64,000 bases of DNA from Bacteroidales bacterium (GTDB lineage Bacteria > Bacteroidota > Bacteroidia > Bacteroidales > UBA12077). Both the position numbers and the translations under genes were made by a program. Under the pieces are notes generated by a model. The model had not been told where the DNA came from, searched no databases, and was given only the letters and a program-made list of their open reading frames with translations. The first letter of the stretch is position 1, and each line of letters starts with the position of its first letter. Shown here one piece after another: positions 36,312-51,700 of the stretch. The stretch lies in the NCBI GenBank assembly GCA_028282785.1, contig JANQHE010000061.1, forward strand, positions 195,170 to 259,169. Reading direction: 5' to 3'.

Positions 36312-37016
36312 TTATACAAACTTTTCTCGTTTCTGTAAATTAATTAATGCCCAAAGTAGAGAAATTACCGACCCGACAATTAACATTAAACGGTTCTGGC
36401 TTAAAATATTTTTCCAAACGGTTAAGCTAATATCACTTGGAACGTCAAAAGGGTTTAAGAATATGTTCCATTTACTGCTTCTTAAAGGTTCGTGCATAAT
36501 CCAAAATACCAGTCCTATGATAATCATTATTACTGCTGCACCGCTGGCATTTTTAACAAGGGTTGCAAATAAAAAAGACAAACAAGATAAAAATATTAAG
36601 GGATACATTACTTCATAAACCATTTTTAAAACCGGGATCCGAAGTACTGCAAATACTGTAAACCATGACATGGCAAATAAAATTATAACAGCCATTGCCA
36701 TACTAATTACGAAACGGATCAAATAGACTTTATAACGGTAATTTGGCACACCAAATACAATTTCTAACATCCTGGCATCTTTATCATTCTGTACATTAAA
36801 AATTACAGGATAAAATATTATTAATAAGCCGGGGAAAAGAATCACACCGTAAATATCATGTTCGGCAATTGATGCATTTTGAAATAGCATGATACCTATA
36901 ATGATTAAAAAGAATGCAATTGCTGCAATCAGGAAGTAAATGAACTTATTTGCAAATACAATCCTTAAATTGTATATCAAAATATCATATGCGAGTTTTA
37001 TTCGGTTCGATCTCAT
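36312..37016 (-). CDS. ABC-2-type membrane permease (6 TM helices)
   Basis: 234 aa and hydrophobic. Its start codon overlaps the stop of the RND-ABC fusion (TAATG), implying translational coupling. Confidence 0.65.
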   Translation of the reverse strand: MRSNRIKLAYDILIYNLRIVFANKFIYFLIAAIAFFLIIIGIMLFQNASIAEHDIYGVILFPGLLIIFYPVIFNVQNDKDARMLEIVFGVPNYRYKVYLIRFVISMAMAVIILFAMSWFTVFAVLRIPVLKMVYEVMYPLIFLSCLSFLFATLVKNASGAAVIMIIIGLVFWIMHEPLRSSKWNIFLNPFDVPSDISLTVWKNILSQNRLMLIVGSVISLLWALINLQKREKFV

Positions 37017-40000
37017 TACTTAACCATTTTTTCTTTAGTTAATAAATACAAATAGGCATCTTCCAGGTTAGCCTTTACAGGCTTTGCTTCCGGAGCTGGA
37101 ATTTTATCAGACAGGCAGCGGCAACGGATCATTTCACCATCTTTCATATGATGAATTATCGTAAATTCATCTTTTAATTTTTCGAACTTATCTTCCGTTA
37201 CATTTAGCATCCATACTTTTTCTTCTGCTAATTTCGCCATTTTTATAGGAGCTCCAAGGTATTTAACTTCTCCTTTTTTCATTACGGCAACCATATTACA
37301 CGAACTTGCTACATCTTCAATAATGTGAGTTGAGAAGATCACGATACGTTCACGGCTGAGTTCTACTAATAAATTCCTAAAACGGATCCGCTCGCGTGGG
37401 TCCAATCCGGCAGTTGGTTCATCTACGACAAGGATTTTTGGTAAATGAAGAAGAATCTGTGCAATCCCGATTCTCTGTTTCATTCCACCCGAGAAAGAGC
37501 CAATTTTTTCATCTTTATTATCATACATATGAACAGCATTCAAAACATACTCAACACGTTTTATCCTTTCTTCCTGGTTATAAAGTTTCTTTAAAATTCC
37601 CATATAATTAAGGAAGTCCCACGCAGTCATGTTTTCATACATTCCAAATTCCTGTGGAAGGTATCCGATCAAGCCTTGCAATTCTTCGCGTTTCTCTCGT
37701 ACATCGATATCGTTAATGGTAATTTGCCCATAACTTTGTTCAAGAATACCGCAAATGATCCTCATAAGCGTAGATTTCCCTGCACCATTTGGCCCCAGCA
37801 AGCCAAACATTCCGTTTTTAATATCAACAGATACTCCTTTAAGTGCTTTAAATGGTACTTTCTTTTTGCCTATTACAGGAATAACCAAAACAAATTTATA
37901 GAACCCCTTTCTTAATCCTTTAAATTTACCTTTTAAGCGGTTTACGTCAACCTTTTTCCTGTACAGGTTGTCAGATGTAACTTTTATAAGCACTAGGAAA
38001 TACCATAAGGCACCCATTGGGATTACTAAGCCTAATAACTCATACTTTTTAAAGAAAAGGAAAAGAGCAAGAGCAGGAAAGGCCCAAAAAAATAACCGGG
38101 ATACGAAAAGTATCAACAAGCTTAAAAGTTTGAATTTCTTTTCTGATTTTAGATTTCGTGCATATTTTTCAACTGGCACAAAGAAATAAGCAGTTAAAAT
38201 GTAAAGGAAAATTGGAAGTATAAAATACCAGAGTCCACTTTCAAGATGGAAATAGATGAAATACACAATAAATCCTATCAATGGAATTTGCCAGATAAGT
38301 TGGCTAAAGTCTTTGATAGTTGTGAATTCATGCTCAATTCCTAACCTTTTTCGGATATTAACTCCGGATTTCCATTCACGCACGAAACGGCTATCCCAGT
38401 CGTATATCTTTACAAGATTTCTAACCTTTATATGTAATGAGTCATCTTCACCAATAAGTTTTTCCGAGGCTTTTCTTAAACTATTTTGTATAAAATAAAT
38501 GGTAGCAGGAACGATTATGATCAACCCGATAAAATCGATAATTTGCCATACTCTTCGGTCAACTTCGGTAAATATAAAGTAGCTAACCGTTACCCAAATT
38601 GCAATTTGTATGATTTTGATATATAACTTCTGGCTTTGCATCCATTTTAGGGATGATTGTAAGCCGGAATTCAGAGTTGGAATAAAAACCAATGTAAGCA
38701 ATGTACTTACAGTTAAGCCTCCGATAATAGTTATTGCAAATGGAACTCCAATTAAAGTAACATATTCGGCTTTGCCAAGCGCTAATGGAATTAGTGCAAT
38801 AATCGTAGTTATAGCTGTGATAAGAATCGGGCGCACACGCGCTAAGCCTGCCATCATTAACGCACGAGATTCGGAATAGCCCCTTCGGCGAAGTACCCTG
38901 GAATAATCAATGAGGATAATTCCATTATTGACGACAATACCAAGCAGTATCAATAACCCGGTTAACACATTTGTATTTAACAAGGATGTTCCGGTTAGTA
39001 TCAATAATACCAGTGAACCAATTGCAGCCATCGGAATGGAGAACATCATTACAACAGGAGTGGAGAATGATTCGAAAACAGATGATAAAATCATGTAGAT
39101 GAGTATAAATGCCATGAGTAACAGAAATGCGAATTCTCCCAGTTCATTTTCATCGTGCACAACCTCCAAAGCAATTCCTGATGAAAGGGTCATTCCTTCA
39201 ACTAACTCATCAATCTCTAATCGTGCAGCTTCGAGCAAATCTTTTTCATCCTGAACTTCATTAATGAATTGATAAATTACTTCAAGTTGTTTTTCCTGGT
39301 TGGTTCTTTTTATAGCAGATAACCCTTCGGTAAAATTAAATTTGCTTATTTCCTGCATTTCAAATTGAGAACCCTGGTTTCCTCTAACATTTAAGGTTTT
39401 TAGTTCTTTTACATTTCGTTCTTTTTGAGTATTATAACCCACTGTTTTTATAAGGATATCATATTCTTCGGTTCCTTGTTTGAACGTTACTCCACTTGAG
39501 AATTCGTGCTGGAAAGAATTTAATTCGGAAAGTACCGATGCAACCGGGATATCATATAATGCCATGAGCTGCTTATCAAAATTAAGCATTAACTCGGGAC
39601 GTTTATCAGGAACCCGAATATCGATATTTTCGACAGATGTAAGTTGACCCAGGTAATATTTAACATCATTTGCCTGGTTGAGCATTTTATCAAAATCCTG
39701 CCCTTTAATGATTACTTTTTCGCGTTGTGCTCCAATTCCCAGCATTCTTCCAAATTCATCATCATCATAACTATCTCCGCCAAAACGTCCACTGGCCGGA
39801 GGATCCCAGCTGAATTCCGCCGGGCTGAGTTCTTCAAGCCTCTCTATGATCTCATTTTTAATTTTGGGGATCGAGAAATTCCGGATTTTTTTATAATCAT
39901 CAACTAAAAATATGGTAAGCGTAGCTTCTTCTTCATAGATCTGGCTGAGAACATCTTTCTTTTCATCTAAATCTTCCAGTTTCTTTTCAGCTTCTGCAAC

Positions 40001-41725
40001 CAGAATATCGGTATTTTCCAATGTTGTTCCACTTGGCATGGTAACATAAAGGGTAACATCTTTTATTTCTGCCTCTTGGGTCGAAATAATGCTAACTCCC
40101 AAACTTATTAAAAGTGCTGCAAAAAATATGATCAAAGCACCAAGAATTGTCCTTCCGGGCTTACGCATACAGGTTTTAAGAAGCACCAGGTAAATTTGAA
40201 TTAACCTGTTATGAAGCGATATTCTTTCGAACCGGATTGGTTTATCCTGTTTTCTAAATTTTAAGAATGCATGTGTGATCATAGGTATTAACAACAAGGC
40301 AACTACCAAAGAAACAAGCAAGGTTGAAATGATAGAAACTCCGATATGCTTTCCAATTAAACCAATAAAGAAATCCGTTGAAAATACAAATGGCAGAAAA
40401 ACAGTTACGGTTGTTAAAGTTGCTGCAAAAATAGATCGCCATACTTCTTTAGTTCCTTGAATAACCGCCTGATCAGGGTGAACCTTTTTAGCTGCAAGCC
40501 GATAAATATTTTCCAAAACAACGACACTATTATCTAACAACATTCCTATGGCCAGGGCCATCCCCAGAAGTGTTAAACTGTTAATGGTTATTCCGGCAGC
40601 ATAAAAGAAATTAAAAGCTGTATAAACTGATATTGGAATAGCCAGAGCAATGGCAACAACCAGCCTGAAATTCTTTAAAAAGATCCAAAGGATGAAAATA
40701 GCAAGTAAGCCTCCGAGAAGTGCCAGTTGAATAATAGAATCAATGTTCTTTTCCATGGTATCAGCGTCATTTCGTTGAATTACAAGCTCAATATCTTTTG
40801 TTTCAAATTCCTTATTCAGCTCTTTAATTTGGCCTTTCACCGCATTTGAGAGTGCTATTATATTAGCTTGTGAATCCTTTGTAATTGCTATGGTAACAGC
40901 TTCTTTTCCATTAACCCGGCTGTAAGAATCTTGCTCTTTTACTCCATAATGGATTTCAGCAATATCCTTTAATCTAATTTTACCTTGTTTTTTTACCACA
41001 ACATTATGAATATCCTGAATATCATCAAATTCAGAAATTACATTCACAAAGTGCAATTGGTTGTTGTTTGTTACCTTACCTGCAAAGGTCCTTGATTTAC
41101 TATTGTTACTTAATGCGGTCCTGACATCAGCAGGGGAAATCCCGTAACTATCACAAATATCCTGGTGTAATAGAACTTCTATCGATTTTTCCCTTCCTCC
41201 GAATACTTCTGCATTGGCAATTCCATCAATATTTTTTATTTTATTGATGATTTCCTGGTCAGTAATTTGTCTTACCCGGTCGATACCTCCGCCACCTCTA
41301 ACCTGGAGGGTCATAAACATGTTGTTTAATTGCTCAAGGTCGAATTTGAAAGTTTGAACCTGGAATTCTTCAGGCAATGTAGTTTTTACTTCATCTATTT
41401 TCTCAACCAATTTGAGGTAGGCAAACTTTAGATCGGTGTTTTTTTCGTAAGAAATCTGAATGGACCCCGATTGTTGCCCTGCAGTTGATTCAATCTTTTC
41501 AATTCCCTTTAGCGTTCCAATTGCACCTTCCAAGGGTATAATAGCCTGGTTTTCCATGTATTTTGGATCAACTTCCAGAGGCGAAGCAACCTGGACAAAT
41601 AGCATGGGGAATGTTGCATTTGGGTAAAGTTCAACAGCGAGCTGCTTATAGGATATATAACCAAGCATGGTTAATCCTGTAAACAACATGGCAATGAGTA
41701 CTTTTCTTTTTATAATGAAATTCAT
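37016..41725 (-). CDS. RND (AcrB-type) efflux permease fused to extra TM helices and an ABC ATPase domain
   Basis: A single 1569-aa ORF. Residues 1 to ~1018 are RND (paralog of 42254..45337). Residues 1287-1569 carry Walker A GPNGAGKST, signature FSGGMKQR, Walker B ILVVDEPTAGLD and an H-loop STH, and are a paralog of 52139..53029. Confidence 0.8.
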   Translation of the reverse strand: MNFIIKRKVLIAMLFTGLTMLGYISYKQLAVELYPNATFPMLFVQVASPLEVDPKYMENQAIIPLEGAIGTLKGIEKIESTAGQQSGSIQISYEKNTDLKFAYLKLVEKIDEVKTTLPEEFQVQTFKFDLEQLNNMFMTLQVRGGGGIDRVRQITDQEIINKIKNIDGIANAEVFGGREKSIEVLLHQDICDSYGISPADVRTALSNNSKSRTFAGKVTNNNQLHFVNVISEFDDIQDIHNVVVKKQGKIRLKDIAEIHYGVKEQDSYSRVNGKEAVTIAITKDSQANIIALSNAVKGQIKELNKEFETKDIELVIQRNDADTMEKNIDSIIQLALLGGLLAIFILWIFLKNFRLVVAIALAIPISVYTAFNFFYAAGITINSLTLLGMALAIGMLLDNSVVVLENIYRLAAKKVHPDQAVIQGTKEVWRSIFAATLTTVTVFLPFVFSTDFFIGLIGKHIGVSIISTLLVSLVVALLLIPMITHAFLKFRKQDKPIRFERISLHNRLIQIYLVLLKTCMRKPGRTILGALIIFFAALLISLGVSIISTQEAEIKDVTLYVTMPSGTTLENTDILVAEAEKKLEDLDEKKDVLSQIYEEEATLTIFLVDDYKKIRNFSIPKIKNEIIERLEELSPAEFSWDPPASGRFGGDSYDDDEFGRMLGIGAQREKVIIKGQDFDKMLNQANDVKYYLGQLTSVENIDIRVPDKRPELMLNFDKQLMALYDIPVASVLSELNSFQHEFSSGVTFKQGTEEYDILIKTVGYNTQKERNVKELKTLNVRGNQGSQFEMQEISKFNFTEGLSAIKRTNQEKQLEVIYQFINEVQDEKDLLEAARLEIDELVEGMTLSSGIALEVVHDENELGEFAFLLLMAFILIYMILSSVFESFSTPVVMMFSIPMAAIGSLVLLILTGTSLLNTNVLTGLLILLGIVVNNGIILIDYSRVLRRRGYSESRALMMAGLARVRPILITAITTIIALIPLALGKAEYVTLIGVPFAITIIGGLTVSTLLTLVFIPTLNSGLQSSLKWMQSQKLYIKIIQIAIWVTVSYFIFTEVDRRVWQIIDFIGLIIIVPATIYFIQNSLRKASEKLIGEDDSLHIKVRNLVKIYDWDSRFVREWKSGVNIRKRLGIEHEFTTIKDFSQLIWQIPLIGFIVYFIYFHLESGLWYFILPIFLYILTAYFFVPVEKYARNLKSEKKFKLLSLLILFVSRLFFWAFPALALFLFFKKYELLGLVIPMGALWYFLVLIKVTSDNLYRKKVDVNRLKGKFKGLRKGFYKFVLVIPVIGKKKVPFKALKGVSVDIKNGMFGLLGPNGAGKSTLMRIICGILEQSYGQITINDIDVREKREELQGLIGYLPQEFGMYENMTAWDFLNYMGILKKLYNQEERIKRVEYVLNAVHMYDNKDEKIGSFSGGMKQRIGIAQILLHLPKILVVDEPTAGLDPRERIRFRNLLVELSRERIVIFSTHIIEDVASSCNMVAVMKKGEVKYLGAPIKMAKLAEEKVWMLNVTEDKFEKLKDEFTIIHHMKDGEMIRCRCLSDKIPAPEAKPVKANLEDAYLYLLTKEKMVK

Positions 41726-41787: not shown

Positions 41788-42165
41788 TTATAAATTATTC
41801 ACTATTCTTTTAATTCCATCTTTAATGAGTTTTTCATTAAAGTTTATTAATAAACCTAATTTTAATCCTGTAATTCTTAAGTAGGTTAATAATTGCTTGG
41901 GGTGAACAGGGGCAATTATTTCAACTGATTTTAGTTCTATTATTACTTTGTTTTCTACAACTAAATCAGCTCTAAAACCTATTTCCATTTTTCTATCCTT
42001 CCATATAACAGGAATTGCTTTTTGCCTCTCAACTTTTAAGCCTTGTTCTAATAATTCGTAATACAATATTTCTTCATAAACAGATTCTAATAAACCTGGT
42101 CCGAGCTGTACATGAATATTGTAACAGGTATTAATGATTATTTTTGAGAGTTCGTTTTCTGTCAT
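41788..42165 (-). CDS. GxxExxY family protein (PD-(D/E)XK-like small protein)
   Basis: 125 aa with the motif GPGLLESVY, plus ...DLVVENKVIIELK.... Confidence 0.8.
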   Translation of the reverse strand: MTENELSKIIINTCYNIHVQLGPGLLESVYEEILYYELLEQGLKVERQKAIPVIWKDRKMEIGFRADLVVENKVIIELKSVEIIAPVHPKQLLTYLRITGLKLGLLINFNEKLIKDGIKRIVNNL

Positions 42166-42253: not shown

Positions 42254-45200
42254 TTAATTTTTATTAAATATCTTAATTTTTAAGCTATCAAATACATAAT
42301 ATACGCAAGGAATAACAACTAATGTTAGCAGGGTGGAAGTTACCAATCCTGCAATTACGGCAATTGCCATTGGTGAGCGTAAAGCTGCACTTTCACCGAT
42401 TCCAAATGTTAGTGGCAAGAGGGCTAAGATTGTTGTTAAACTTGTCATCATAATAGGGCGAATTCTGTTTTCACCGGCATTTATAATGGATTCTTTCAGT
42501 GATAATCCTTGTACTTTAAACTGATTTATAGCATCGACCAGAATAATGGAATCGTTTACGGCAATACCGGCAAGCATAATAATACCAATGTATGCCATAA
42601 TACTTAATGATTTTCCCAGGATAAGGAATGCCCAGATTGCTCCAACTCCTGCCAAAGGAATGGTTAATAAAATAGTAAGTGGGTGAATCATTGATTCAAA
42701 CTGGGACGCCATTACCATATAAACTAATATAATTGAAAGAATCAAAGCAAAACTCAAGCTTGACATTGCCTCCTGGCGTTTTTGTTCTTCGCCAACTATA
42801 CTAATTTGGTATTCCTGTGGTATATCAAGAGTGGCTATTTGTTCCCTTACACTTTCAACAGCCTGGTCAAATGGAACCGAGCGGTCAATATCTGCCATTA
42901 CTTTCCCAATTCTGTTCTGGTTTCTACGGAAAAGTTGCTTTGGCGAAGTAGATTTCTTTATAGTTGCCAACTCATACAATGGAACATTGTTATTACCATT
43001 TTTAAGAGTAATCGAATTGAATTCTGACAAACTCAGTTCAGGCAATTTTACGGTAATGTCGTTCATTTCGCCATCCTTTTCATACTTGCCTGCATCTTTT
43101 CCCATTAAAAGGTCCTTAAGCTGATTAATTATATCTTCAACACTCATATTGTAAATACCGGCTTTATAGCGGTCAATAACAACATCAATCTCCGGTGCGC
43201 CTTCTTCAATATTTGTTTTTATGTTAAGAAGTGCAGGAATTTCCTGAAGTTTAGCTTTTATTTCTGTTGATACCTGATCCAAAACAACCAAGTCTTTTCC
43301 TTTTACTTCTACCACTAGTGGAGCGTCATCAGTACCCATTATTGATTGCAAAGCGGTTTCATCTCTTATGATAGAGATTTCTGCGTCAGGAATTGTTCCC
43401 ATTAATTCTTCAACCGAAGAAATAATATATTGCGACTGCTCCAGATATTCATCTTTTAAGTGAATTTTTATGGTAGCTGTATTTTCATTTTGGAAAACCG
43501 ATTTTTCATTGGTTGAAGTACTTGAAGGGCCGATCTGGCTATAAACTATATTTAGTTTATCACCAAGCATTTCATTTAACATCGCTTCAATATTAGCAAC
43601 GGCCCCGGATGTCCTTTCCAGTTCGGTTCCTTCTTTAAGTTTTATTTCGATGCTAAATTCGCCGGCTCCACTTTTTGGAAGGTATTCTGATCCAACATAA
43701 GGAAAGATGTAAACCGTTAATGCTAATAAAAGAGTAGCAAAAACAATTACAAGCCCTTTTTTATCAAGGATCTTAGATAACAAATTACCATACCACCCAA
43801 TACGGACTGACTTGATTTTATTTTCTTTTTTGTGTTTTCTATATGCAAAATTGAAAAGCATTGGAATAACCAGAATTGCAACAAATAGTGATGCCAGCAA
43901 TGAGAATGCAACAGTCCAGGCCTGGTCTTTAAATAGTGCACCAGAAGCTCCATGCAAATAAACTATTGGCAAGAATACTACAATTGTGGTTAAGGTTGAA
44001 GCGACAATAGCACCACCAACTTCCGCAGTTCCGTGAATTGCAGCTTCTCGAACAGACATTCCCTGTTCCATATTCCGGAAGATATTTTCCATTACCACGA
44101 TTGCATTGTCAACCAGCATACCAGCCCCTAGGGCAAGCCCACCAAGGGTCATTATGTTTAAAGTGAGCCCATTAAAATACATTAAGTTGAAGGTAGCAAT
44201 AACTGAAATAGGTATTGCGAAACTGATGATCGCTGTTACCTTTAACCTTCTTAAGAAAATGAAAAGTACAAATACAGCTATTAAAATTCCTATTAATGCG
44301 GTTTCTTGTACTTCATCAATAGCAGTTTGAATAAATTTTCCCTGGTTTTGAACGATAATAAATTCATATCCGGGCAATGCTTTTTGAATAGATTCAAAAG
44401 ATTTAATTAAATCTTCAACCGCTTTTACAGTATTGAAACCGGTTTCTTTGTATATCGAAAGCCCAACGCATCGTTCACCATTAATTCGAACAACATTTTG
44501 AGGATCCTTATTCGTAAAACTTACGTTAGCAACATCTTTTAAGAAAATAGGGGTTTTTAAAACAGCATCCTGGTTTTGAGTTCCGTTTACCAGCTTATAG
44601 CTTAAAACTATATTCTCAATATCTTCAACTCTGCCTACAAGGCTTGAACCTTTAATGATATATTTTTTACCCATTTCAACAATAGTACCTCCGGAAACAT
44701 TTCTGTTCATGTTCTGGATTTCCTGTACAATCTGCCCTGTAGTTAAACCATAGGCATCTAATTTATATTGCTCGGTTTCAATCAATACTTCTTTTTCTTC
44801 GGTACCAGTAAGCGATACATCGGCAATGCCTTCTAACCTGATTAGTTCATTACGAATATAATTTTCACCAACTTTCCTCAACTCGTCCATGTCGGTAATC
44901 TCCGGATGTTTCATTCCTATGATCATTACCGGTGTCGCGTTAGGGTCGTGCTGTGTGATGGTGAATTCGTCGATATCCGAATTTTGGCTATATGCCGTTA
45001 GTGCTTTTTGAAGGTCCAAAAATGCTTCATCCATATCAGTTCCCCAGTTATACTCTACCGTTACCCGGGCAGAACCAACCATACATACTGAGGAAACCTG
45101 TGATACACCTTTTTGGCGAATAGATTGTGCTTCTATATCTTCTATAAACTGCTTTTCTAATTCTTCCGGTGGGCGTTCTCCTGCCTTAATTTCGACAAAT

Positions 45201-45337
45201 ATTCTGGGGGCATTCATATCGGGAAACAGGTCAACACTTAACCTTCCGAATGAAATGTATCCCAATAGAATAATTGCAATAACAATCATCGAAACCGTTA
45301 CAGGGTTATTAACCGAAAATTGTGTAATTTTTTTCAT
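42254..45337 (-). CDS. RND (AcrB/HAE1-type) efflux permease
   Basis: 1027 aa with the typical 12-TM/two-loop layout and motifs (GLALGAGMLVDNAIVVMENI, AGIAVNDSIILVD). Confidence 0.92.
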   Translation of the reverse strand: MKKITQFSVNNPVTVSMIVIAIILLGYISFGRLSVDLFPDMNAPRIFVEIKAGERPPEELEKQFIEDIEAQSIRQKGVSQVSSVCMVGSARVTVEYNWGTDMDEAFLDLQKALTAYSQNSDIDEFTITQHDPNATPVMIIGMKHPEITDMDELRKVGENYIRNELIRLEGIADVSLTGTEEKEVLIETEQYKLDAYGLTTGQIVQEIQNMNRNVSGGTIVEMGKKYIIKGSSLVGRVEDIENIVLSYKLVNGTQNQDAVLKTPIFLKDVANVSFTNKDPQNVVRINGERCVGLSIYKETGFNTVKAVEDLIKSFESIQKALPGYEFIIVQNQGKFIQTAIDEVQETALIGILIAVFVLFIFLRRLKVTAIISFAIPISVIATFNLMYFNGLTLNIMTLGGLALGAGMLVDNAIVVMENIFRNMEQGMSVREAAIHGTAEVGGAIVASTLTTIVVFLPIVYLHGASGALFKDQAWTVAFSLLASLFVAILVIPMLFNFAYRKHKKENKIKSVRIGWYGNLLSKILDKKGLVIVFATLLLALTVYIFPYVGSEYLPKSGAGEFSIEIKLKEGTELERTSGAVANIEAMLNEMLGDKLNIVYSQIGPSSTSTNEKSVFQNENTATIKIHLKDEYLEQSQYIISSVEELMGTIPDAEISIIRDETALQSIMGTDDAPLVVEVKGKDLVVLDQVSTEIKAKLQEIPALLNIKTNIEEGAPEIDVVIDRYKAGIYNMSVEDIINQLKDLLMGKDAGKYEKDGEMNDITVKLPELSLSEFNSITLKNGNNNVPLYELATIKKSTSPKQLFRRNQNRIGKVMADIDRSVPFDQAVESVREQIATLDIPQEYQISIVGEEQKRQEAMSSLSFALILSIILVYMVMASQFESMIHPLTILLTIPLAGVGAIWAFLILGKSLSIMAYIGIIMLAGIAVNDSIILVDAINQFKVQGLSLKESIINAGENRIRPIMMTSLTTILALLPLTFGIGESAALRSPMAIAVIAGLVTSTLLTLVVIPCVYYVFDSLKIKIFNKN

Positions 45338-45477: not shown

Positions 45478-46527
45478 TTACTTGATAACTTTAACTTTTG
45501 AGCGGTTGCGAAGTGTTTCGAATCCTTTTATAACTAAACGATCGTTTTTCTCCAAGCCAGAGATTATTTGTACTTCATCAGGATTTTCTAACCCGAAAGT
45601 TACAATACGTTCCTGAGCTAATCCTTTATCAACCACAAATACGGTACTTCCTCTTTGTTTAGCGAGAATCACATCTTTAGGTATTACGATTGTACTATCA
45701 ACCGATGCTACTATGATTTCGCCTTTTGCAAACATTCCCGGACGCAATAATAAACCGGAATTAGAAACGTCAATAACCGTTTTAAATGATCTGGTATCTG
45801 CATCAATAGCCGGAGATATTTGGGCTACTTTTCCAACCAATGTATCTTCAGGAATGGTGTAATTCGTAATTTTTACTTTTTGCCCAACTTTTACAAAACT
45901 TAGGTCCTTTTCCGCCAGGCTAATTTCCATATATAATTTACTATAATCCATTAACTTAAACATTAGTGAATTGGCAACAACTCTTGTACCCGGTGTGTAA
46001 TATGGCAAATCTACTATTACACCTGAAAAAGGGGCCTTAATATGCATCTTTTCCAAACGGATTAGGGCATCTTTATAACTATAATCGGCATTTATATAAT
46101 TAATTTCTGCATTTTTAAGTTCACTCAAAGTAACTCCACCTTTTTCGTAAAGAGATTGTTGTTTTTCGAAAGTTTGTTTCGTGATCTCTAGGTTTAGCTT
46201 TAATGAAAGAATCTTGATGTTATTTTCATATTCATCATCCTTCAAATAGATAATTTTATCGCCTTCATTAACCTTATCGCCTAAAGCATATTTTTTACCG
46301 GTAGTTGGATTGATCATAAGGTTATATTCACCGGCAATTTCGGATTTAAAGTTTATTTCTTTTACCGGATTAACTGTACCGGTAGTTTCAATAAATTTTT
46401 CAATTGACTGTAGTTTCAAATCCTGTACTGAAACCGGAACAGATATATCTTTATTTAAATCCTTTTCTTCGTTATTACACGATGCAAACATGATGATTGC
46501 GGCTAAGATTATAACTATTTTTCTCAT
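45478..46527 (-). CDS. Efflux membrane fusion protein (HlyD/AcrA family), lipoprotein
   Basis: Lipobox MFASC after the Met at 46527 (preferred over the track start at 46581), then coiled-coil and beta-barrel regions typical of MFPs. Confidence 0.85.
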   Translation of the reverse strand: MRKIVIILAAIIMFASCNNEEKDLNKDISVPVSVQDLKLQSIEKFIETTGTVNPVKEINFKSEIAGEYNLMINPTTGKKYALGDKVNEGDKIIYLKDDEYENNIKILSLKLNLEITKQTFEKQQSLYEKGGVTLSELKNAEINYINADYSYKDALIRLEKMHIKAPFSGVIVDLPYYTPGTRVVANSLMFKLMDYSKLYMEISLAEKDLSFVKVGQKVKITNYTIPEDTLVGKVAQISPAIDADTRSFKTVIDVSNSGLLLRPGMFAKGEIIVASVDSTIVIPKDVILAKQRGSTVFVVDKGLAQERIVTFGLENPDEVQIISGLEKNDRLVIKGFETLRNRSKVKVIK

Positions 46528-46552
46528 TGTGTATTTAATTTTTATTGTTTTC

Positions 46553-46610
46553 TTTTTTTGAACGCAGATGCCACGGATCAATATATTGAGCGCGGATAAC
46601 CGCTGATTTT
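46553..46610 (-). repeat. Family-B flanking repeat, downstream copy
   Basis: tgaacgcagatgccacggatcaatatattgagcgcggataaccgctgatttt. It has 5 mismatches over 52 nt against 47021..47080. Confidence 0.85.
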
Positions 46611-47010
46611 AACTATTTATCGCTTTAATATTTTTTCTTTTATTTTCAAATACTTTTCTTACAAATTCAGGCTTTTTGCCAAAATTTAGAAGTAAACCAA
46701 CTTCTTTGTCAGTTGCTCGTAAGTAGTTTAATAATTGCCATTCAAACTCTTCAACAATATATTCTGTAGCTTTTAGTTCAAGAATTATCAAATCATTTAC
46801 AACCAAATCTGCATAATATTCGCCTACTTCGACTCCCTTGTAATGTACTTTTATCTGTTTTTGAGCTTCTACATCAAAACCTTGATTTTTGAGTTCTAAA
46901 TACAGTGAATTTTGGTATACTTTTTCAAGAAATCCATATCCTAATTCATTGTAAACATTGTAAAATGTTTTAAGAATTTTATCAGTCAGTTCTTTATGTA
47001 TTAGGTTCAT
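46609..47010 (-). CDS. GxxExxY family protein (second paralog)
   Basis: Motif GYGFLEKVY, plus ...DLVVNDLIILELK.... The ATG at 47010 is preferred over the track start at 47037. Confidence 0.8.
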   Translation of the reverse strand: MNLIHKELTDKILKTFYNVYNELGYGFLEKVYQNSLYLELKNQGFDVEAQKQIKVHYKGVEVGEYYADLVVNDLIILELKATEYIVEEFEWQLLNYLRATDKEVGLLLNFGKKPEFVRKVFENKRKNIKAINS

Positions 47011-47020
47011 TACTTTTATA

Positions 47021-47080
47021 TTTTTTTTTGAATGCAAATGCCGCGGATCAATAAATTGAACGCGGATAACCGCTGATTTT
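47021..47080 (-). repeat. Family-B flanking repeat, upstream copy
   Basis: tgaatgcaaatgccgcggatcaataaattgaacgcggataaccgctgatttt, 10 nt upstream of the GxxExxY start codon. Confidence 0.85.
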
Positions 47081-47155: not shown

Positions 47156-48679
47156 TTAATTCGTATCGGATGATCTTATATTGTTTTGTAATTCCTGCGG
47201 AACAAATGATCTTCCATTTTCAAAATCCCAGAGCGATTGTATTTTCATGTTAAGCAACTCCAGTTTATAGTTTATGAGAGCATTTGCCAGATTCATTTTT
47301 TTCTGAGATAACTGGTTTTGGTACCTTTCCAGGTCGATACTGGTTAGATCTCCATTTTTGTACCTCTCCAGGTTTATATCATATGTTAATTGTGCATTTT
47401 TTTCGTTTTGTTCGGCAATTTTAATTTGCGAGTTTAAATTTTGAAGGTTTCTGAACACCTGCCTGATATTGATAACAATATTATCTTCTAAGGTTTTCAG
47501 GTCTAGTTCTCTGGATTCAATTGCAAGCTCTGCAGCACGTATTCTGGCTTTTCTTTCACCCCAGTCGAATACCGGAATGGAGAATGTAATTCCGACTTGA
47601 GGGCTTCGCGTAGGTTTTTCATAAACATTTGCAAAGTCTTCATTATTACCCATAATTCCAACCGAAAGATCCACATCACCTCTAAATTCATTTGTAGCAG
47701 AAGTTTCGATTAAGTCAAACTGAGCATTGTTCAAATCAATTTTTCTTTGTGATATTTCTAATCTTTGAGATAGCCCATTTTCTATAGCCTTTTCTAAATC
47801 AACAATAACGGGAGTATATTGTATATCTGTTTCAATTTCTACTTCCTCATATAATGAAATACCTATTAAACGCTTGAATTGGTCTTTTGAATTTTCTAGA
47901 TCAACCTTTGCATTTTCAAGGTTTGACTGGCTGGTTGCATAGTTCAATTCGCCTTGTAATAATTCCTCCTGTGCTGATAACCCTGCTTCAACTTTACTTT
48001 TTATAATTTCAAAACTTATTTTCTGGTTTTCAAATTCTTCTTCAGCAATTTGAACAGCCATTTGTTTTTGGTAAATTGCATAAAAAGCCTGGGTTACTTG
48101 CTGTTCAATACTAAGCATTTGGATTGAATAGGAGAGCGTAGCATTTTCAAGAGACAATTGCTGTCTTTCCAAATTCATTTTGGTTTTATTATATGTAAAT
48201 AAAGGTTGATTATAGCTTAAATATAAATTATTATTAAATCCCTCGTAGGTATTCGTAGTTTTTGTCGGGTTTAACGGATCAGTGAAATTATCAAACGTTT
48301 CAGTTGAGGTTGATTTATATTCGAAATCATTTCTTAATGATAAAGTACCATCTGTCCATTTAATAGGTTGTGAAATGACCAATCCGGCATTTGATAGTGT
48401 ATTTTCTGATGTGTACCACTGTGAATAATATTCGTCGTAAGTTTCACTATTTGAATACCGAATCGGTGTAACATTCAATGAAAAATGAGATTTAAGCATG
48501 GCCAATTGGGCATTTAAATACTCCCGGTTTTGTTCCATGGTTAGCCTGGATTGCTTAATATCAGGGCTATTTTCGAGAGCTGTACTCATGGCATCCTTAA
48601 GGGTTAATACCATTTGGCCTTTTGTTATCAAACCACTTATTATTAGTGTGCTTGTTATAAATATTTTTATTCTTAACAT
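47156..48679 (-). CDS. TolC-like outer membrane efflux protein
   Basis: 507 aa with a signal peptide and two repeats of the OEP pattern (LTLKDAMSTALENSPDIKQ...; coiled-coil rich). Confidence 0.85.
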   Translation of the reverse strand: MLRIKIFITSTLIISGLITKGQMVLTLKDAMSTALENSPDIKQSRLTMEQNREYLNAQLAMLKSHFSLNVTPIRYSNSETYDEYYSQWYTSENTLSNAGLVISQPIKWTDGTLSLRNDFEYKSTSTETFDNFTDPLNPTKTTNTYEGFNNNLYLSYNQPLFTYNKTKMNLERQQLSLENATLSYSIQMLSIEQQVTQAFYAIYQKQMAVQIAEEEFENQKISFEIIKSKVEAGLSAQEELLQGELNYATSQSNLENAKVDLENSKDQFKRLIGISLYEEVEIETDIQYTPVIVDLEKAIENGLSQRLEISQRKIDLNNAQFDLIETSATNEFRGDVDLSVGIMGNNEDFANVYEKPTRSPQVGITFSIPVFDWGERKARIRAAELAIESRELDLKTLEDNIVINIRQVFRNLQNLNSQIKIAEQNEKNAQLTYDINLERYKNGDLTSIDLERYQNQLSQKKMNLANALINYKLELLNMKIQSLWDFENGRSFVPQELQNNIRSSDTN

Positions 48680-48779: not shown

Positions 48780-51700
48780 TTAATCGTTTTTAACCCATTT
48801 TATAGCATCTGAAAAAATCATTTTACTTACTGATTTATTTGTTTGTTCAACTTTTGCATTTTCCGGTGATATGTAAAAAGTTCCCATGTAGTTCCATCCG
48901 GCATCCAGTTCCTCATCCATCAACGTGATTTCTTCAACTCCATCATTATTGTGAATTTTAAAGTTATAGCTAGGTTTACGTTTATCACGGTTCCATTCGA
49001 TATTTATTTTTGCAATATGACAATAAAGATCATAATACCCGGCTTCATCTAATTCGGGAACCCATTCGGTGGTCCTTTCGTTTTCTCCTGACCTGGTGTA
49101 CATTGCGGAGCGTATATATTTTCCATAAAATCCGGTTCTTAAGACAGGTTTCCAAACAGGTGGTGGATTCCAGAAATGTAGTCCTGAATATTTATAACGA
49201 TCTTCTTTGTTTTTATTGATCAATACTTTTAAATAACTTTCATTTGATTCCTGAAAAACTTCAAACTTTGGGTCTTCATTATCAACTATAAATTCATTTT
49301 CATTGGCTAAATCAGTAAATAATGGATATTTTTTTATACCATCAAAAACCGGTATTTTTTTAAGTTCGTCAAATCCTGAAAATTCATAGATCAAATTATT
49401 GGGAAGGTTCTCGGATATATTAGTGAAGATATTCATTCGAGTGGGTTCTGTGGGAAATAATACTCCATACTCAATAGCCGATTCTGCCGGAAGAAATATT
49501 TTCTTAGAATAATCAGGTTGTTCCGGCCCATCATCTGAAAAGCTTCGTACATTGCTTTTATCATCCAAATCGATGGTCATGGTAATGATACCATCAATTT
49601 TCTCAGGGTTAGCTATTTTGCACCGAACCTGGTATTTTGTATACTCTCCGTCGAGTACTTTGTAGGTTTCCAAATCTTTAATTAAAAATCCAGGCATTTC
49701 TGTTTTGGTATACCAGTCTTCTATTTCACTACCAATCGGATCATTGAAAGTTTGTGATATTATGCTTTCTAATTCTTCAAACGGGAATGACTGATGATAG
49801 TTTGATGTAATTAACCGGTTAATTATATTGTTGAAATTTTCATCACCATAACGTGCCCTGAAAAGTGAGAATAAATAATCACCCTTTGCCAGGATGATAT
49901 CATTTATGGTCAGCTGGTCATCGTCATCATCCAGGCTTTCATCTTTTTCAACACCTGTTTTGATAAGATCTTCCAAACCGGATTCCATTAATTCCAGGTT
50001 GATTTTTTCTCCTTCACTAATTCCCCTCCAGAACCAACGGTATGATGAAACATTGTTTACATTTCGTTCTCGTAGATAAACTTCGAGTGCCAGATTCAGA
50101 ATTGGAAATTCTTCCGATTCTATTTGTGTAACTTGGCTGAAATAATGTGGAATTAAGCTGTAAGTGTATTTGTCAACAACATTTTCGAACTGGTACCATT
50201 CGGTTGGTGGTGCCATTAAGTTTCCTCTTACAAACCGTTTAAATATTCGGCACTGAAGCTCTTCCGGAGAAACTTCTTCGTTGTTTTCTTTCATTCGTTC
50301 TTCGAAACGGTTCTTACGTTTTACGAAGTCTGTTTCTTCCATGATTACACCTTTTTCCGGGTATAATATTATTTCCGGTTGCACAGCATCGCTTGTTACT
50401 GACCAGATGTGCTTATCTAAAGCAAAATGAATAGGAATTTCAACAAGTGAAAATCGGTTAAATCCATATTTTAGGTTAAGCAATGTTTCGTATTCATCTC
50501 TCAGTTCACGTATGATAGCTGGCATTGTATCCTTAAATTCAGTGAAATGCTCCAAATAAAAATCATTGCCTTTGGTTGAATAGATACTGTATTCAACAGA
50601 ATCAACCGTGATAGAATATTTATCGTATTCTGCAATAGTTAAACTAATTTTTGGCAGGGCATAATCATTTATAAAAGTAAAAGTCCCATTTTCGTGGTTT
50701 GTTGCATTACCCTGAGATACAGCAAGCAAATCAGGAAAGGTTTTAACGGTTAACTCAAATTGAGTAAAATCTTCTTTAAAATAAGCTGGTTTATTGGGTG
50801 CATATGTCACTCCGGCCTTTGGATACCACAATGATTCACTGGTTAAGCATACAAAGTCTTCCTGAATATATGCAAAACGTTTTTGAGCTTTAAAAATTTC
50901 AAGAGCAAAATTATCTTCATATTTTTCAGGTTGCTGATCTAAAAAGCATATATTTTCATTTATAGTACCGTGGTAATTAATTTCTATTTTGAGATTTTGC
51001 TCAGGTTTTAAACCTTGATTGTATTTGATCTTAATTAAATGTTTTTCTCTTTCGAATTGAGTTGGTACAGTGCCAACTTTTATTTCATTGATTTTTAAAT
51101 CAGGATTTAAACTGAACAATATAGTTTCGATGTTTTTCTCTGAATTATTAAAAACATTCATTAGACATTTAACATTTATTTCATTCCCAAGATGTTCTAA
51201 TTCAATATTGCAAGCATCAATTTGCACTACAGGTTCGTTTGAATACTTATTATTGATTGCAATAAATTCTTCTTTTTGCTTTAAAACATCCTTCTTTAGG
51301 TTTACATAAAAAAATCCAAAATAAACTCCAAGGGCAAGAAACATAAGAGCCAACGATAATGGAAAAATTCCCGAAGATTTAGATTGAGGGAGCCTGTTTA
51401 GTTTAAATACGGTAAACAATATTAGCCCAATTCCTATAAAAAAATATATCCCACGATGAACAGTTATTGCAGCCAGATCTCCAAAGCCGGCAATCATAGA
51501 ATTCATCATTGGAATTTTAAAGGCTATATAATCAAAAAGGTGGTAAAACTTCTCATCTAAATAAAAAATGGTAACCGCTATATAACCAAGCAGTATTATA
51601 AATGTAATTGCCTGGTTTTTTAGAAGTGTCATTAACAAAAATGAAAGCCCCAGAATAAAAACTAGTGTCGGAATACTTATTAAAAGAGGGTATAGAAAGA

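What the first reader, a model, noticed from the sequence alone, without database searches (positions are those of the whole stretch)
37016..41725. RND efflux permease fused in-frame to an ABC ATPase whose first beta-strand is split from its Walker A core by a ~178-aa membrane insertion
Seen in sequence: a single uninterrupted 1569-aa ORF.
- Residues 1 to ~1018 (41725..~38672) form a complete AcrB-type RND permease, paralogous to the neighbour at 42254..45337.
- Two extra hydrophobic helices follow (aa ~1019-1090).
- Next comes LHIKVRNLVKIY (aa 1097-1108, 38437..38402). This matches the N-terminal strand of the stand-alone paralog ATPase at 52139..53029 (KIRIENLDKIY).
- About 178 aa with roughly four hydrophobic helices follow (38401..37868).
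- Only then comes the rest of the nucleotide-binding domain (37867..37019): FKALKGVSVDIKNGMFGLLGPNGAGKST, FSGGMKQR, ILVVDEPTAGLD and the H-loop.
- In the stand-alone paralog the two pieces are contiguous (ENLDKIYKNGKRALFNVNLEIENGMFGLLGPNGAGKSS).

The extra helices come in even numbers (2, then about 4). After the 12-TM RND core, both NBD pieces therefore stay cytoplasmic, so the architecture is topologically coherent rather than a random fusion.

Established knowledge: RND pumps are proton-motive-force antiporters, and ABC domains hydrolyse ATP. I am not aware of a characterised protein that combines them.

Inference: either the ATPase gates or assists the RND pump, or the NBD is tethered to the RND body to serve the downstream translationally coupled ABC-2 permease (36312..37016, TAATG overlap).
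Basis: partly seen in the sequence, partly recalled or inferred. Interest (0 to 1): 0.9.

Follow-up and report, generated by a model that had tools for sequence, protein, structure and literature searches.

The report
RND efflux pump fused to ABC ATPase
A proton-driven-type (RND) efflux pump subunit and an ATP-driven (ABC) motor are encoded as one conserved 178-kDa protein, the motor's first strand split off by a four-helix membrane insertion; I found no published description of this architecture, present in at least 265 bacterial species.

Summary
Window 37016..41725(-) is one 1569-aa ORF with five parts:
- a complete AcrB-type RND permease (aa 2-1018);
- two extra TM helices;
- a 12-residue strand (aa 1097-1108) that is the missing beta-1/A-loop strand of an ABC nucleotide-binding domain (NBD);
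- a 177-aa insertion with an amphipathic helix and four TM helices;
- the rest of a catalytically complete ABC-2-type NBD.

It is not an assembly artefact. The same single ORF of about 1570 aa occurs in 67 of the 80 related genomes fetched, cultured Marinifilum, Labilibaculum and Ancylomarina included. It also occurs in metagenome contigs, some with cluster members labelled KSB1 or Latescibacterota. The linker/insertion domain was found nowhere outside this fusion.

The gene sits in a conserved cluster: free ABC ATPase, giant ABC-2-like permease, (OMF), MFP, RND1, RND2::NBD, 6-TM ABC-2 permease.

Most likely an ABC-2 exporter (fused NBD plus downstream permease) is tethered to a two-paralog RND pump, giving a two-stage, dual-energy efflux machine. 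Direct ATP drive of the RND body is a live alternative, because both RNDs lack AcrB's D408 and K940. No literature description was found. This is a new variant of high interest.

The parts
37016..41725 (-). Whole 1569-aa (178 kDa) RND2::NBD fusion ORF
   Evidence: The same single ORF occurs in 67 of 80 related loci.
38672..41725 (-). RND permease domain, aa 1-1018 (12 TMs plus two periplasmic loops). TM4 reads LLDNS (40526..40540), TM10 reads VVNNG (38921..38935) and TM11 reads RVRPIL (38822..38839).
   Evidence: Pfam ACR_tran covers profile positions 3-1016 of 1021. Alignment to MdtB. Motif invariance.
38483..38626 (-). Two extra TM helices (TM13 and TM14, aa about 1034-1081) that return the chain to the cytoplasm
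   Evidence: Hydropathy, AF2 helices 16-36 and 40-69 of the modelled segment, charge distribution.
38402..38437 (-). Displaced NBD beta-1 strand with the A-loop tyrosine (aa 1097-1108, LHIKVRNLVKIY; Y1108)
   Evidence: Aligns to the N-terminus of the paralog. AF2 strand with pLDDT about 90. The motif I.I.N[LV].K.[YF] is kept in all 14 divergent full-length relatives. The splice test gains +4 to +13 bits in the listed models that cover the N-terminal strand.
37871..38401 (-). 177-aa insertion between beta-1 and beta-2 (aa 1109-1285). It holds a conserved amphipathic helix (aa 1113-1128, 38342..38389), four TM helices (aa 1139-1252, 37970..38311) and a basic cytoplasmic helix.
   Evidence: No Pfam family. 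Found only inside proteins with this fusion architecture. No homology to the ABC-2 permease.
37019..37870 (-). NBD core plus C-terminal domain (aa 1286-1569). Walker A 37769..37795, Q-loop 37649..37663, signature 37472..37495, Walker B 37400..37435, H-loop 37319..37336.
   Evidence: Pfam ABC_tran. PDB sequence matches to ABCA1/3/4/7 and TM_1403. Foldseek matches to 4yer, NosF and LptB. Motifs invariant.
36312..37016 (-). 234-aa six-TM ABC-2 (type V) permease, the presumed membrane partner of the fused NBD
   Evidence: Present directly downstream in 75 of 80 loci. 50 of 60 orthologs hit PF12698. The AF2 model's top 50 PDB matches are all type-V ABC membrane domains.
42254..45337 (-). RND1, a 1027-aa unfused RND paralog (TM4 reads DN, TM10 reads ND)
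   Evidence: Conserved directly upstream in 72 of 80 loci. Motifs.
45478..46581 (-). Membrane fusion protein (periplasmic adaptor), 367 aa
   Evidence: Pfam HlyD_D23 and HlyD_3. Conserved in 67 of 80 loci.
47156..48679 (-). Outer-membrane factor (TolC-like), 507 aa
   Evidence: Pfam OEP, E 3e-50. Found in 64 of 80 loci. Absent from the cluster in L082.
48780..52136 (-). 1118-aa protein with seven N-terminal TMs (ABC-2-like) and a region of about 840 aa, presumed extracytoplasmic, ending in Golvesin_C
   Evidence: Its C-terminus is seen upstream of the pump in 55 loci. Full ortholog in L082.
52139..53029 (-). Free 296-aa ABC-2-type ATPase, 40% identical to the aligned C-terminal segment of the fusion, with a contiguous beta-1
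   Evidence: Ortholog in L082.
53761..54144 (-). 127-aa short GntR/YtrA-type (PmtR-like) regulator at the head of the cluster
   Evidence: NCBIfam PmtR-like, E 8e-12, below the curated cut-off.

Best explanation
**What is shown.** The gene encodes one inner-membrane polypeptide made of:
- an AcrB-type RND permease (RND2, 12 TMs);
- a two-TM return linker;
- an ABC-2-class ATPase whose first strand, carrying the A-loop tyrosine Y1108, is separated from its core by an amphipathic helix and a four-TM bundle.

All catalytic ABC motifs are intact. The NBD is the most conserved part of the protein.

The gene belongs to an ancient conserved cluster: free ATPase, giant ABC-2-like permease, (OMF), MFP, RND1, RND2::NBD, 6-TM ABC-2 permease.

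**What is inferred.**
- The displaced strand folds back onto the NBD core and completes the ATP site. The insertion leaves the NBD at its membrane-facing A-loop surface and pins the NBD flat against the membrane beside the RND body.
- Two fused NBDs dimerise and drive two copies of the 234-aa type-V permease. They could come from a 1 RND1 : 2 RND2 heterotrimer, analogous to MdtB2C.
- The result would be an ATP-driven ABC-2 exporter bolted onto an RND/MFP/OMF pump. The ABC half would move substrate out of the cytoplasm or inner leaflet. The RND half would capture it at the periplasmic face and expel it through the adaptor and the outer-membrane channel.
- The fusion would thus hard-wire a two-stage relay that other Gram-negative bacteria achieve with separate pumps. 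The substrate is unknown.
For: - **Architecture.**
- **The split strand is real.** The paralog alignment supports it. AF2 predicts a 10-residue DSSP strand at pLDDT about 90. The only other strands in the model belong to the NBD, so its pairing partner must be an NBD strand (inferred, since no coordinates were available). The motif is invariant, including the aromatic residue, in 67 close and 14 divergent members. Splicing aa 1094-1108 onto the core makes 18 of the 21 listed ABC-ATPase HMMs align from profile position 1-4 (or the equivalent N-terminal strand) and gain 4-13 bits. The native upstream 15 aa and a reversed strand add about 0 bits.
- **The fusion is real and old.** 265 species-representative genomes encode a relative. 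67 of 80 loci carry the single ORF. The linker domain occurs only in proteins with this architecture. Contigs whose cluster members are labelled KSB1 and Latescibacterota carry it.
- **Partner permease.** It lies downstream in 75 of 80 loci. It matches ABC2_membrane_3 in 50 of 60 orthologs and has a type-V fold resembling NosY, ABCG2 and PmtCD.
- **Tandem RND paralogs with one MFP**, as in MdtABC. The B2C heterotrimer precedent is in PMC4462101.
- **Two-stage efflux concept.** PMC4338810.
- **Insertion site.** The A-loop region faces the membrane domains (PMC3971661). CFTR tolerates an insertion at the same beta-1/beta-2 site (PMC2217481).
Against: - No experiment or multimer model links the NBD to the permease or to the RND cycle.
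- RND pumps are trimers and ABC motors are dimers. The 1:2 stoichiometry that resolves this mismatch is a guess.
- A free paralogous ATPase in the same cluster could be the true dimer partner.
- Both RNDs lack AcrB's D408 and K940, so the RND half may not be an ordinary proton antiporter.
- Docking of beta-1 is read from the DSSP and pLDDT output, not from coordinates.
- The permease's Pfam hit in this window is below the gathering score, and its Foldseek E-values are weak (4e-3 or higher).
Confidence: 0.5

Rival explanations
1. ATP-driven or ATP-gated RND pump. NBD closure and opening are transmitted through the covalent TM13/14 linker and the four-TM bundle directly to the RND transmembrane domain. 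This replaces or supplements the proton relay. The small permease is an accessory.
For: - TM4 reads D-N and TM10 reads N-N in RND2, invariant in 67 close and nearly all of 14 divergent members.
- RND1 also lacks D408 and K940.
- In AcrB each of these residues is essential, and D408 is the residue that is protonated during the cycle (PMC8277102).
- The NBD is the most conserved part of the protein.
- The fusion is never found split.
Against: - No RND protein has the coupling helix that ABC motors normally grip.
- A canonical type-V permease partner is conserved next door.
- D407, R971 and T978 equivalents are retained, and 58 of 69 RND1 orthologs have an Asp in TM10. Proton coupling by a variant relay therefore remains plausible.
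- I could not determine whether the DN/NN pattern is simply typical of this RND clade outside ABC-linked operons.
Confidence: 0.2
2. Heterodimeric ABC motor. The fused NBD pairs with the free 296-aa paralog, and the two dissimilar permeases (1118 aa and 234 aa) form one asymmetric ABC-2 transporter. A single RND2 protomer per RND trimer anchors it.
For: - The free ATPase and giant permease pair is conserved upstream of the pump in at least 55 loci and in the most divergent relative.
- The two NBDs are 40-44% identical and share the GMFGLLGPNGAGKS motif and the C-terminal domain.
- This arrangement resolves the trimer/dimer mismatch with one fused subunit.
Against: - Both NBDs have fully consensus catalytic motifs. 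Heterodimeric ABC motors often carry one degenerate site.
- The solved PmtCD exporter listed by the fold search was reported with C2 symmetry (entry title). The cluster's regulator and permease weakly resemble the Pmt system.
- Each ATPase gene is directly followed by its own permease gene, the usual sign of two separate transporters.
Confidence: 0.17
3. The NBD is a non-transport regulatory module, for example an ATP/energy sensor or an assembly switch for the RND pump. The downstream membrane protein is not a transporter.
For: - The conserved residues of the insertion are interfacial Trp and Pro plus a basic amphipathic helix. None looks like a polar translocation path.
- The permease hits to Pfam are weak.
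Against: - All hydrolytic residues are invariant: Walker B Glu, H-loop His, Q-loop Gln and the signature motif.
- The partner has the type-V ABC membrane fold.
Confidence: 0.08
4. Artefact: a sequencing or assembly frameshift, or a pseudogene, joined two or three separate genes.
For: One relative (L001/L066, a single MAG chromosome record) has the RND and ABC parts as two overlapping ORFs.
Against: - That split would be removed by deleting one A from an A4 run.
- 67 independent genomes, cultured isolates included, carry the intact ORF of about 1570 aa.
- 14 divergent full-length representatives do too.
- Composition is uniform across the junction.
Confidence: 0.01

Closest known systems
MdtABC-TolC / MuxABC-type RND tripartite pumps with two tandem RND paralogs (HAE-1 RND, AcrB fold)
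   Same: - Full-length ACR_tran permease with 12 TMs and two large periplasmic loops.
- Two paralogous RND genes in tandem behind one adaptor gene, and usually an outer-membrane factor gene.
- MdtB is the best PDB sequence match for the RND part.
   Different: - A 550-aa C-terminal extension carries six more TMs and an ABC ATPase.
- The AcrB D408 and K940 equivalents are Asn.
- Scores are far below the NCBIfam family cut-offs (463 against 1250 bits).
- Heterotrimer formation was not tested here.
ABC-2 / type V exporters with separate ATPase and 6-TM permease (DrrAB, NosFY, PmtCD, GldAF; eukaryotic ABCA/ABCG)
   Same: - NBD class: best NCBIfam models are GldA and DrrA, and best PDB matches are ABCA1/3/4/7, TM_1403 and NosF.
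- A C-terminal domain follows the NBD.
- The downstream 234-aa permease has the type-V fold.
- A short GntR/YtrA-type regulator sits at the head of the cluster, as in the Pmt system.
   Different: - The ATPase is covalently fused to an RND permease.
- Its beta-1/A-loop strand is separated from the core by a 177-aa membrane insertion.
- Scores are below the equivalog cut-offs for GldA and DrrA.
MacAB-TolC (ABC-driven tripartite efflux)
   Same: An ABC ATPase encoded together with a membrane fusion protein and a TolC-like channel.
   Different: - MacB has its own type-VII membrane and periplasmic domains and no RND component.
- Here the periplasmic machinery is an RND pair and the ABC membrane partner is a minimal type-V permease.
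CFTR NBD1 regulatory insertion
   Same: An insertion at the same structural site, between strands 1 and 2 of the NBD beta-subdomain (PMC2217481).
   Different: - The CFTR insertion is about 30 aa, soluble, mobile and phosphorylated.
- Here it is 177 aa with an amphipathic helix and four transmembrane helices.
Functional cooperation of single-component inner-membrane exporters with RND tripartite pumps
   Same: The inferred logic: one transporter moves substrate across or out of the inner membrane, and the RND complex removes it across the outer membrane (PMC4338810).
   Different: - In known cases the two pumps are separate proteins with no physical link.
- Here they are one polypeptide in one operon.

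Membership tests
RND superfamily, AcrB/AcrD/AcrF type (Pfam PF00873) | Full-length match to the ACR_tran profile above the gathering score | tested here: met
   532 bits against a cut-off of 28. Profile positions 3-1016 of 1021 are covered by aa 2-1018.
RND superfamily, AcrB/AcrD/AcrF type (Pfam PF00873) | 12 TM helices with two large periplasmic loops (after TM1 and TM7) | tested here: met
   Hydropathy peaks at aa about 3-21, 331-552 and 860-1019, with hydrophilic stretches of about 300 aa between them. End-to-end alignment to CmeB, ZneA and other solved RNDs.
HAE-1 RND proton antiporters (AcrB/MexB/MdtB) | Proton-relay triad D407, D408 and K940, plus R971 and T978 | tested here: not met
   - TM4 reads D398-N399 and TM10 reads N933-N934. 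R965 and T973/T974 are kept.
- The pattern is invariant in the family.
- The canonical residues are defined in PMC8277102.
HAE-1 RND proton antiporters (AcrB/MexB/MdtB) | Score above the NCBIfam subfamily or equivalog cut-offs | tested here: not met
   The best model is RND_permease_2 at 463 bits against a cut-off of 1250. MdtC scores 291 against 1774 and AcrB scores 170 against 2150.
MdtB2C-type heterotrimeric RND | Two paralogous RND genes in tandem in one operon with a single adaptor | tested here: met
   RND1 lies directly upstream of RND2 in 72 of 80 loci, preceded by a single MFP.
MdtB2C-type heterotrimeric RND | The two paralogs assemble into one 2:1 trimer | not testable with these tools
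   No multimer prediction or biochemistry is available.
ABC ATPase (Pfam PF00005) | ABC_tran match above the gathering score, with Walker A, Q-loop, signature, Walker B Glu, D-loop and H-loop | tested here: met
   105 bits against a cut-off of 25. Motifs located and invariant in 105 aligned relatives.
ABC ATPase (Pfam PF00005) | A-loop aromatic on beta-1, contiguous with the core (about 25 residues before Walker A) | tested here: not met
   - Y1108 lies 203 residues before Walker A.
- The 15 residues immediately upstream of the core add no HMM score.
- The strand is present but displaced.
ABC-2 / type V exporter (DrrAB-like) | NBD of the DrrA/GldA/ABCA class | tested here: inconclusive
   The best NCBIfam models are GldA (174 bits) and DrrA (164 bits), but both are below their cut-offs of 402 and 312. 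The best PDB sequence hits are ABCA4, ABCA1 and ABCA3.
ABC-2 / type V exporter (DrrAB-like) | Adjacent six-TM permease with the ABC-2 membrane fold | tested here: met
   - Six hydropathy peaks.
- 50 of 60 orthologs hit PF12698, best E 1e-8. The copy in this window scores only 17 bits, below the gathering score.
- The top 50 Foldseek PDB matches are all type-V ABC membrane domains, with TM-scores of 0.45-0.64.
ABC-2 / type V exporter (DrrAB-like) | ATP-dependent export by an NBD2-TMD2 complex | not testable with these tools
   Requires biochemistry or a complex structure.

The most novel reading that the evidence does not exclude
A dual-energy or ATP-driven RND machine.
- The ABC motor is mechanically coupled to the RND transmembrane domain through the covalent TM13/14 linker and the four-TM bundle.
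- ATP hydrolysis then drives or gates the RND transport cycle in a pump whose two RND subunits have both lost AcrB's D408 and K940.
- This would be the first transporter in which a primary-active ABC engine powers a secondary-active RND body.
Probability: 0.2. Interest if true: 0.95.

Novelty: new variant of a known kind. Interest (0 to 1): 0.8.

Why it matters
- **Two energy classes in one protein.** RND pumps (proton-driven) and ABC pumps (ATP-driven) are treated as separate energy classes of efflux machinery. Here evolution has welded one of each into a single polypeptide. It has kept them welded across Bacteroidota and contigs with cluster members labelled KSB1 and Latescibacterota, inside an operon that also keeps a second RND, a second ABC pair, an adaptor and usually an outer-membrane channel.
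- **Open questions become testable.** The system makes these concrete questions testable in cultured organisms (Marinifilum, Labilibaculum, Ancylomarina):
  - Can inner-membrane export and trans-envelope expulsion be physically channelled?
  - Can ATP hydrolysis be coupled to an RND cycle?
  - How do a trimeric and a dimeric machine fit together?
- **A natural split NBD.** The A-loop strand sits about 200 residues from Walker A, separated from the core by a four-TM bundle. This shows how far the ABC fold tolerates insertion. It gives a ready-made handle for studying NBD folding and membrane tethering.
- **Annotation.** The protein is currently labelled only 'efflux RND transporter permease subunit' or 'hypothetical protein', so the ABC half is invisible in annotation.

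Tried and rejected
1. **Assembly or frameshift artefact: rejected.** 67 intact orthologous ORFs exist. The single split case would be restored to the fused frame by deleting one A from an A4 run.
2. **Local beta-1 hypothesis: rejected.** The idea was that FYKFVLVIPVIG, just upstream of the core, is the real first strand, as suggested by the phmmer alignment to 4yer starting at chain residue 5. AF2 makes that stretch helix and coil. It adds about 0 bits to most of the ABC HMMs listed, at most about 2.4.
3. **The 2+4 extra TMs as a degenerate ABC-2 permease domain: not supported.** This would place beta-1 in the coupling loop. hhalign against the permease family gives a probability below 1%, Pfam finds nothing, and Foldseek matched only the NBD part.
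4. **RND2-specific loss of the proton relay as evidence for ATP drive: weakened.** RND1 shares the TM4 D-N motif, and 11 of 69 RND1 orthologs also read N-N in TM10. I had no outgroup RNDs in the fetched data to say whether this is clade-typical; my scan found only the two operon RNDs, and the TM10 pattern of that scan was flawed.
5. **PSSM test of beta-1 from local stand-alone ATPases: abandoned.** Only two such sequences were available. The NCBIfam splice test replaced it.
6. **Promoter and terminator scan: uninformative.** Counts equal the shuffled expectation.
7. **One PDB search was wasted.** It used a mistyped residue and requested no alignments.
8. **Six literature searches for any RND-ABC fusion found nothing**. 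The library lacks most subscription journals and TCDB/InterPro, so absence is not proof.

Full report
**1. The observation**

Window 37016..41725 (minus strand) is one uninterrupted ORF of 1569 aa, about 178 kDa. Pfam places a full-length ACR_tran domain at aa 2-1018 (E 3e-159). It places an ABC_tran domain at aa 1295-1439 (E 7e-30). Both are far above the gathering score.

Hydropathy shows the 12 RND helices plus six more, in a 2 + 4 pattern. The neighbour at 42254..45337 is an unfused RND paralog with about 27% identity. The stop codon overlaps the start of a 234-aa membrane protein gene as TAATG. GC content is even across the junctions.

**2. Is the NBD really split?**

Four independent lines say yes.

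- Paralog alignment. MAFFT aligns the N-terminus of the stand-alone paralogous ATPase (52139..53029, MKIRIENLDKIY) to aa 1097-1108 (LHIKVRNLVKIY). It then opens a gap of about 180 residues and resumes at KNGKRAL / KKKVPFKAL.
- Structure prediction. I ran AlphaFold2 on aa 1019-1569 with 105 homologs (mean pLDDT 85.6, pTM 0.70).
  - It predicts aa 1099-1108 as a 10-residue beta-strand at pLDDT about 90.
  - The only other strands in the model belong to the NBD, so the DSSP ladder partner must be an NBD strand.
  - The residues immediately upstream of beta-2 are helix and coil.
  - I could not inspect coordinates, so docking is inferred from the DSSP and pLDDT output.
- Conservation. The motif I.I.N[LV].K.[YF](D/G) is conserved in 105 close relatives, with I1099, V1105, K1106 and Y1108 invariant. 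It is also kept in all 14 divergent full-length representatives, whose linker identity falls to about 20%. By position this aromatic residue is the A-loop residue that stacks on the adenine ring (definition in PMC3971661).
- Splice test. I joined aa 1094-1108 directly to the core (aa 1286-1569).
  - 18 of the 21 listed NCBIfam ABC-ATPase models then align from profile position 1-4 or the equivalent N-terminal strand, and gain 4-13 bits. The other three do not reach the strand. Examples: GldA 188.0 against 179.0, GlcV 126.7 against 113.3, LptB 124.6 against 117.1.
  - The native 15 upstream residues and a reversed strand add about nothing, and those alignments start at profile position 5 or later, mostly 10-16.

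The insertion (aa 1109-1285) holds three elements:
- a conserved basic amphipathic helix (RFxREWKxGxxIRxRLG);
- four TM helices;
- a basic cytoplasmic helix.

K+R counts are 34 in the predicted cytoplasmic segments against 4 in the periplasmic loops. The insertion site, between strands 1 and 2, is where CFTR NBD1 carries its 30-residue regulatory insertion (PMC2217481).

**3. Is the fusion real and conserved?**

- Protein search. Searching with aa 1025-1569 returned relatives of 51-85% identity. Many carry PF00873 and PF00005 in one protein. The sources name them 'efflux RND transporter permease subunit' or 'ABC-type multidrug transport system ATPase subunit'.
- Genome scan. A scan of one genome per GTDB species found 265 genomes encoding a relative.
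  - Cultured examples: Marinifilum breve, M. flexuosum, M. fragile, Labilibaculum filiforme, L. manganireducens, Ancylomarina euxinus and Perlabentimonas gracilis.
  - Of the 80 loci fetched, 66 have a single ORF of 1544-1643 aa. L022 adds one more that my pattern missed.
  - Most of the remaining loci are cut by contig ends. L076 has a shorter 1365-aa ORF.
- The one split case. L001/L066, a single MAG chromosome record, would be restored to the fused frame by deleting one A from an A4 run in the linker.
- The linker alone. Searching aa 1019-1290 against 1.84 billion representative proteins gave only 94 hits. Every full-length hit is 1550-1585 aa, with the linker at about 1020-1290. The insertion domain therefore exists only inside this fusion, and no intermediate without the insertion was seen.
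- Divergent members. Their RND identity is 33-38%. Some cluster members are labelled candidate division KSB1 and Latescibacterota, and one hit is labelled Krumholzibacterium.
- Conservation by region. It is highest in the NBD (50-66% in divergent members), then the RND part (33-54%), then the linker (18-39%).

**4. Genomic context**

tblastn of the window's neighbouring proteins against the 80 loci shows fixed synteny:

| Gene | Loci with the gene (of 80) |
|---|---|
| OMF | 64 |
| MFP | 67 |
| RND1 | 72 |
| RND2::NBD | 80 |
| 234-aa permease | 75 |

The missing cases are mostly limited by the length of flank fetched.

The C-terminus of the 1118-aa protein encoded upstream (48780..52136) is seen in front of the OMF in 55 loci.

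The most divergent relative (L082/L083, a marine metagenome contig) has this order: ATPase (297 aa), a 1124-aa protein (Golvesin_C, faint Peptidase_M1), MFP, RND1, RND2::NBD, ABC-2 permease. Its genes overlap and there is no OMF in the cluster.

The 234-aa protein has six TMs. 50 of 60 orthologs hit ABC2_membrane_3. Its AF2 model (pLDDT 76.7) matches only type-V ABC membrane domains in the PDB: NosY, ABCG2, ABCG25, PmtCD, ABCG5/8 and CcmB. TM-scores are 0.45-0.64 and E-values are weak.

The 1118-aa protein has seven N-terminal TMs with a faint ABC2_membrane_2 signal. About 840 residues follow, presumably extracytoplasmic. A short GntR/YtrA-type, PmtR-like regulator heads the cluster.

The cluster therefore looks like a two-ATPase, two-permease ABC-2 operon. 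An RND/MFP/OMF module sits between the two pairs, and the second ATPase is fused to the second RND.

**5. The RND half**

Alignment to MdtB shows the AcrB D407 equivalent retained (D398). D408 is Asn (N399) and K940 is Asn (N933). R971 and T978 equivalents are kept. This pattern is invariant in 67 close members and nearly so in 14 divergent members.

In AcrB these residues form the proton relay. Substituting any one of them abolishes transport, and D408 is the residue that is protonated during the cycle (PMC8277102).

RND1 also reads D-N in TM4. In TM10 it reads N-D in 58 of 69 orthologs and N-N in 11. The deviation is therefore a trait of both paralogs and is not a loss specific to RND2. I could not determine whether it is common in RNDs that are not linked to ABC genes.

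**6. Mechanism**

Shown:
- the architecture;
- the intact catalytic motifs;
- the displaced A-loop strand;
- the conserved permease partner;
- the tandem RNDs with one adaptor.

Inferred (confidence about 0.5):
- The strand folds back to complete the ATP site.
- The insertion leaves the NBD at its A-loop surface. The review in PMC3971661 describes that region as contacted by membrane-domain loops in exporters. The insertion would then anchor the NBD against the membrane next to the RND body.
- Two fused NBDs dimerise and drive two 234-aa permeases. The resulting ABC-2 exporter would hand substrate to the RND/MFP/OMF pump. This would be a hard-wired form of the known cooperation between inner-membrane exporters and tripartite pumps (PMC4338810).
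- A 1 RND1: 2 RND2 heterotrimer, by analogy with MdtB2C (PMC4462101), would supply exactly two NBDs. This is a guess.

Rivals:
- direct ATP drive or gating of the RND cycle (0.2), favoured by the missing D408 and K940;
- a heterodimeric motor with the free paralogous ATPase (0.17);
- a regulatory ATP sensor (0.08);
- an artefact (0.01).

The substrate is unknown.

**7. Comparison with known systems and novelty**

The RND part is an AcrB-fold RND, but it fails the HAE-1 relay test and the NCBIfam cut-offs. The NBD is a DrrA/GldA/ABCA-class ABC ATPase, also below the equivalog cut-offs, with a non-contiguous A-loop. The closest systems are:
- MdtABC-type pumps;
- ABC-2 type V exporters (NosFY, PmtCD);
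- MacAB-TolC;
- the CFTR regulatory insertion, for the insertion site.

Six full-text searches found no description of an RND-ABC fusion. A check of a comprehensive 2021 review of tripartite pumps, of which only the first 300,000 of about 748,000 characters are held, also found none. The library omits most subscription journals, and I could not query TCDB or InterPro, so a brief database note elsewhere cannot be excluded.

I rate it a new variant of known kinds: an unprecedented combination plus a split NBD. There is a 0.2 chance that it is categorically new, namely an ATP-coupled RND.

**8. Verdict**

The function remains open but is sharply testable in cultured hosts. Interest: 0.8.

Noticed in passing
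window 46609..47037(-) and 41788..42165(-): - Two homologous small PD-(D/E)XK / GxxExxY genes (142 and 125 aa) occupy intergenic gaps inside the efflux operon, one between OMF and MFP and one between RND1 and RND2::NBD.
- Only 7 of 80 related loci have such a gene at these sites.
- They look like sporadic, possibly selfish, insertions that the operon tolerates.
   Followed up: partly
window 48780..52136(-): - This 1118-aa protein has seven N-terminal TMs with a faint ABC2_membrane_2 signal. About 840 residues follow, ending in a Golvesin_C domain.
- The ortholog in L082 shows a faint Peptidase_M1 signal.
- There is no PDB sequence match.
- It is conserved with the free ATPase upstream of the pump in at least 55 loci. 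The function of the large domain is unknown.
   Followed up: partly
window 53761..54144(-) and 53121..53744(-): - A 127-aa short GntR/YtrA-type regulator (PmtR-like, E 8e-12, below the cut-off) heads the cluster.
- A 207-aa single-TM protein follows, with a weak DUF2807-like signal.
- Together with the PmtCD-like permease fold, this suggests descent from a Pmt/Ytr-type operon with two ATPases and two permeases.
   Followed up: no
window 40526..40540 and 38921..38935 (RND2); RND1 aa 410-411 and 928-929 (within 42254..45337): - Both RND paralogs lack AcrB's D408 and K940. TM4 reads D-N in both. TM10 reads N-N in RND2 and N-D or N-N in RND1.
- It is unexplained whether this is a general trait of this RND clade or is linked to the ABC association.
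   Followed up: partly
L001 7960..8020 (same genome as L066, OY760934.1): - This is the only relative in which the RND and ABC parts are separate ORFs.
- It has a 17-nt overlap that would be removed by deleting one A from an A4 run in the linker.
- This is probably a sequencing error. If it is real, it is a natural split exactly at the linker before beta-1.
   Followed up: yes
window 35843..36256(-) and 35242..35838(-): - Downstream of the permease lie a 137-aa protein with 3-4 TMs and a 198-aa soluble protein. Neither matches any family.
- They are found after the operon only in the closest relatives, 7 and 3 loci respectively.
   Followed up: no
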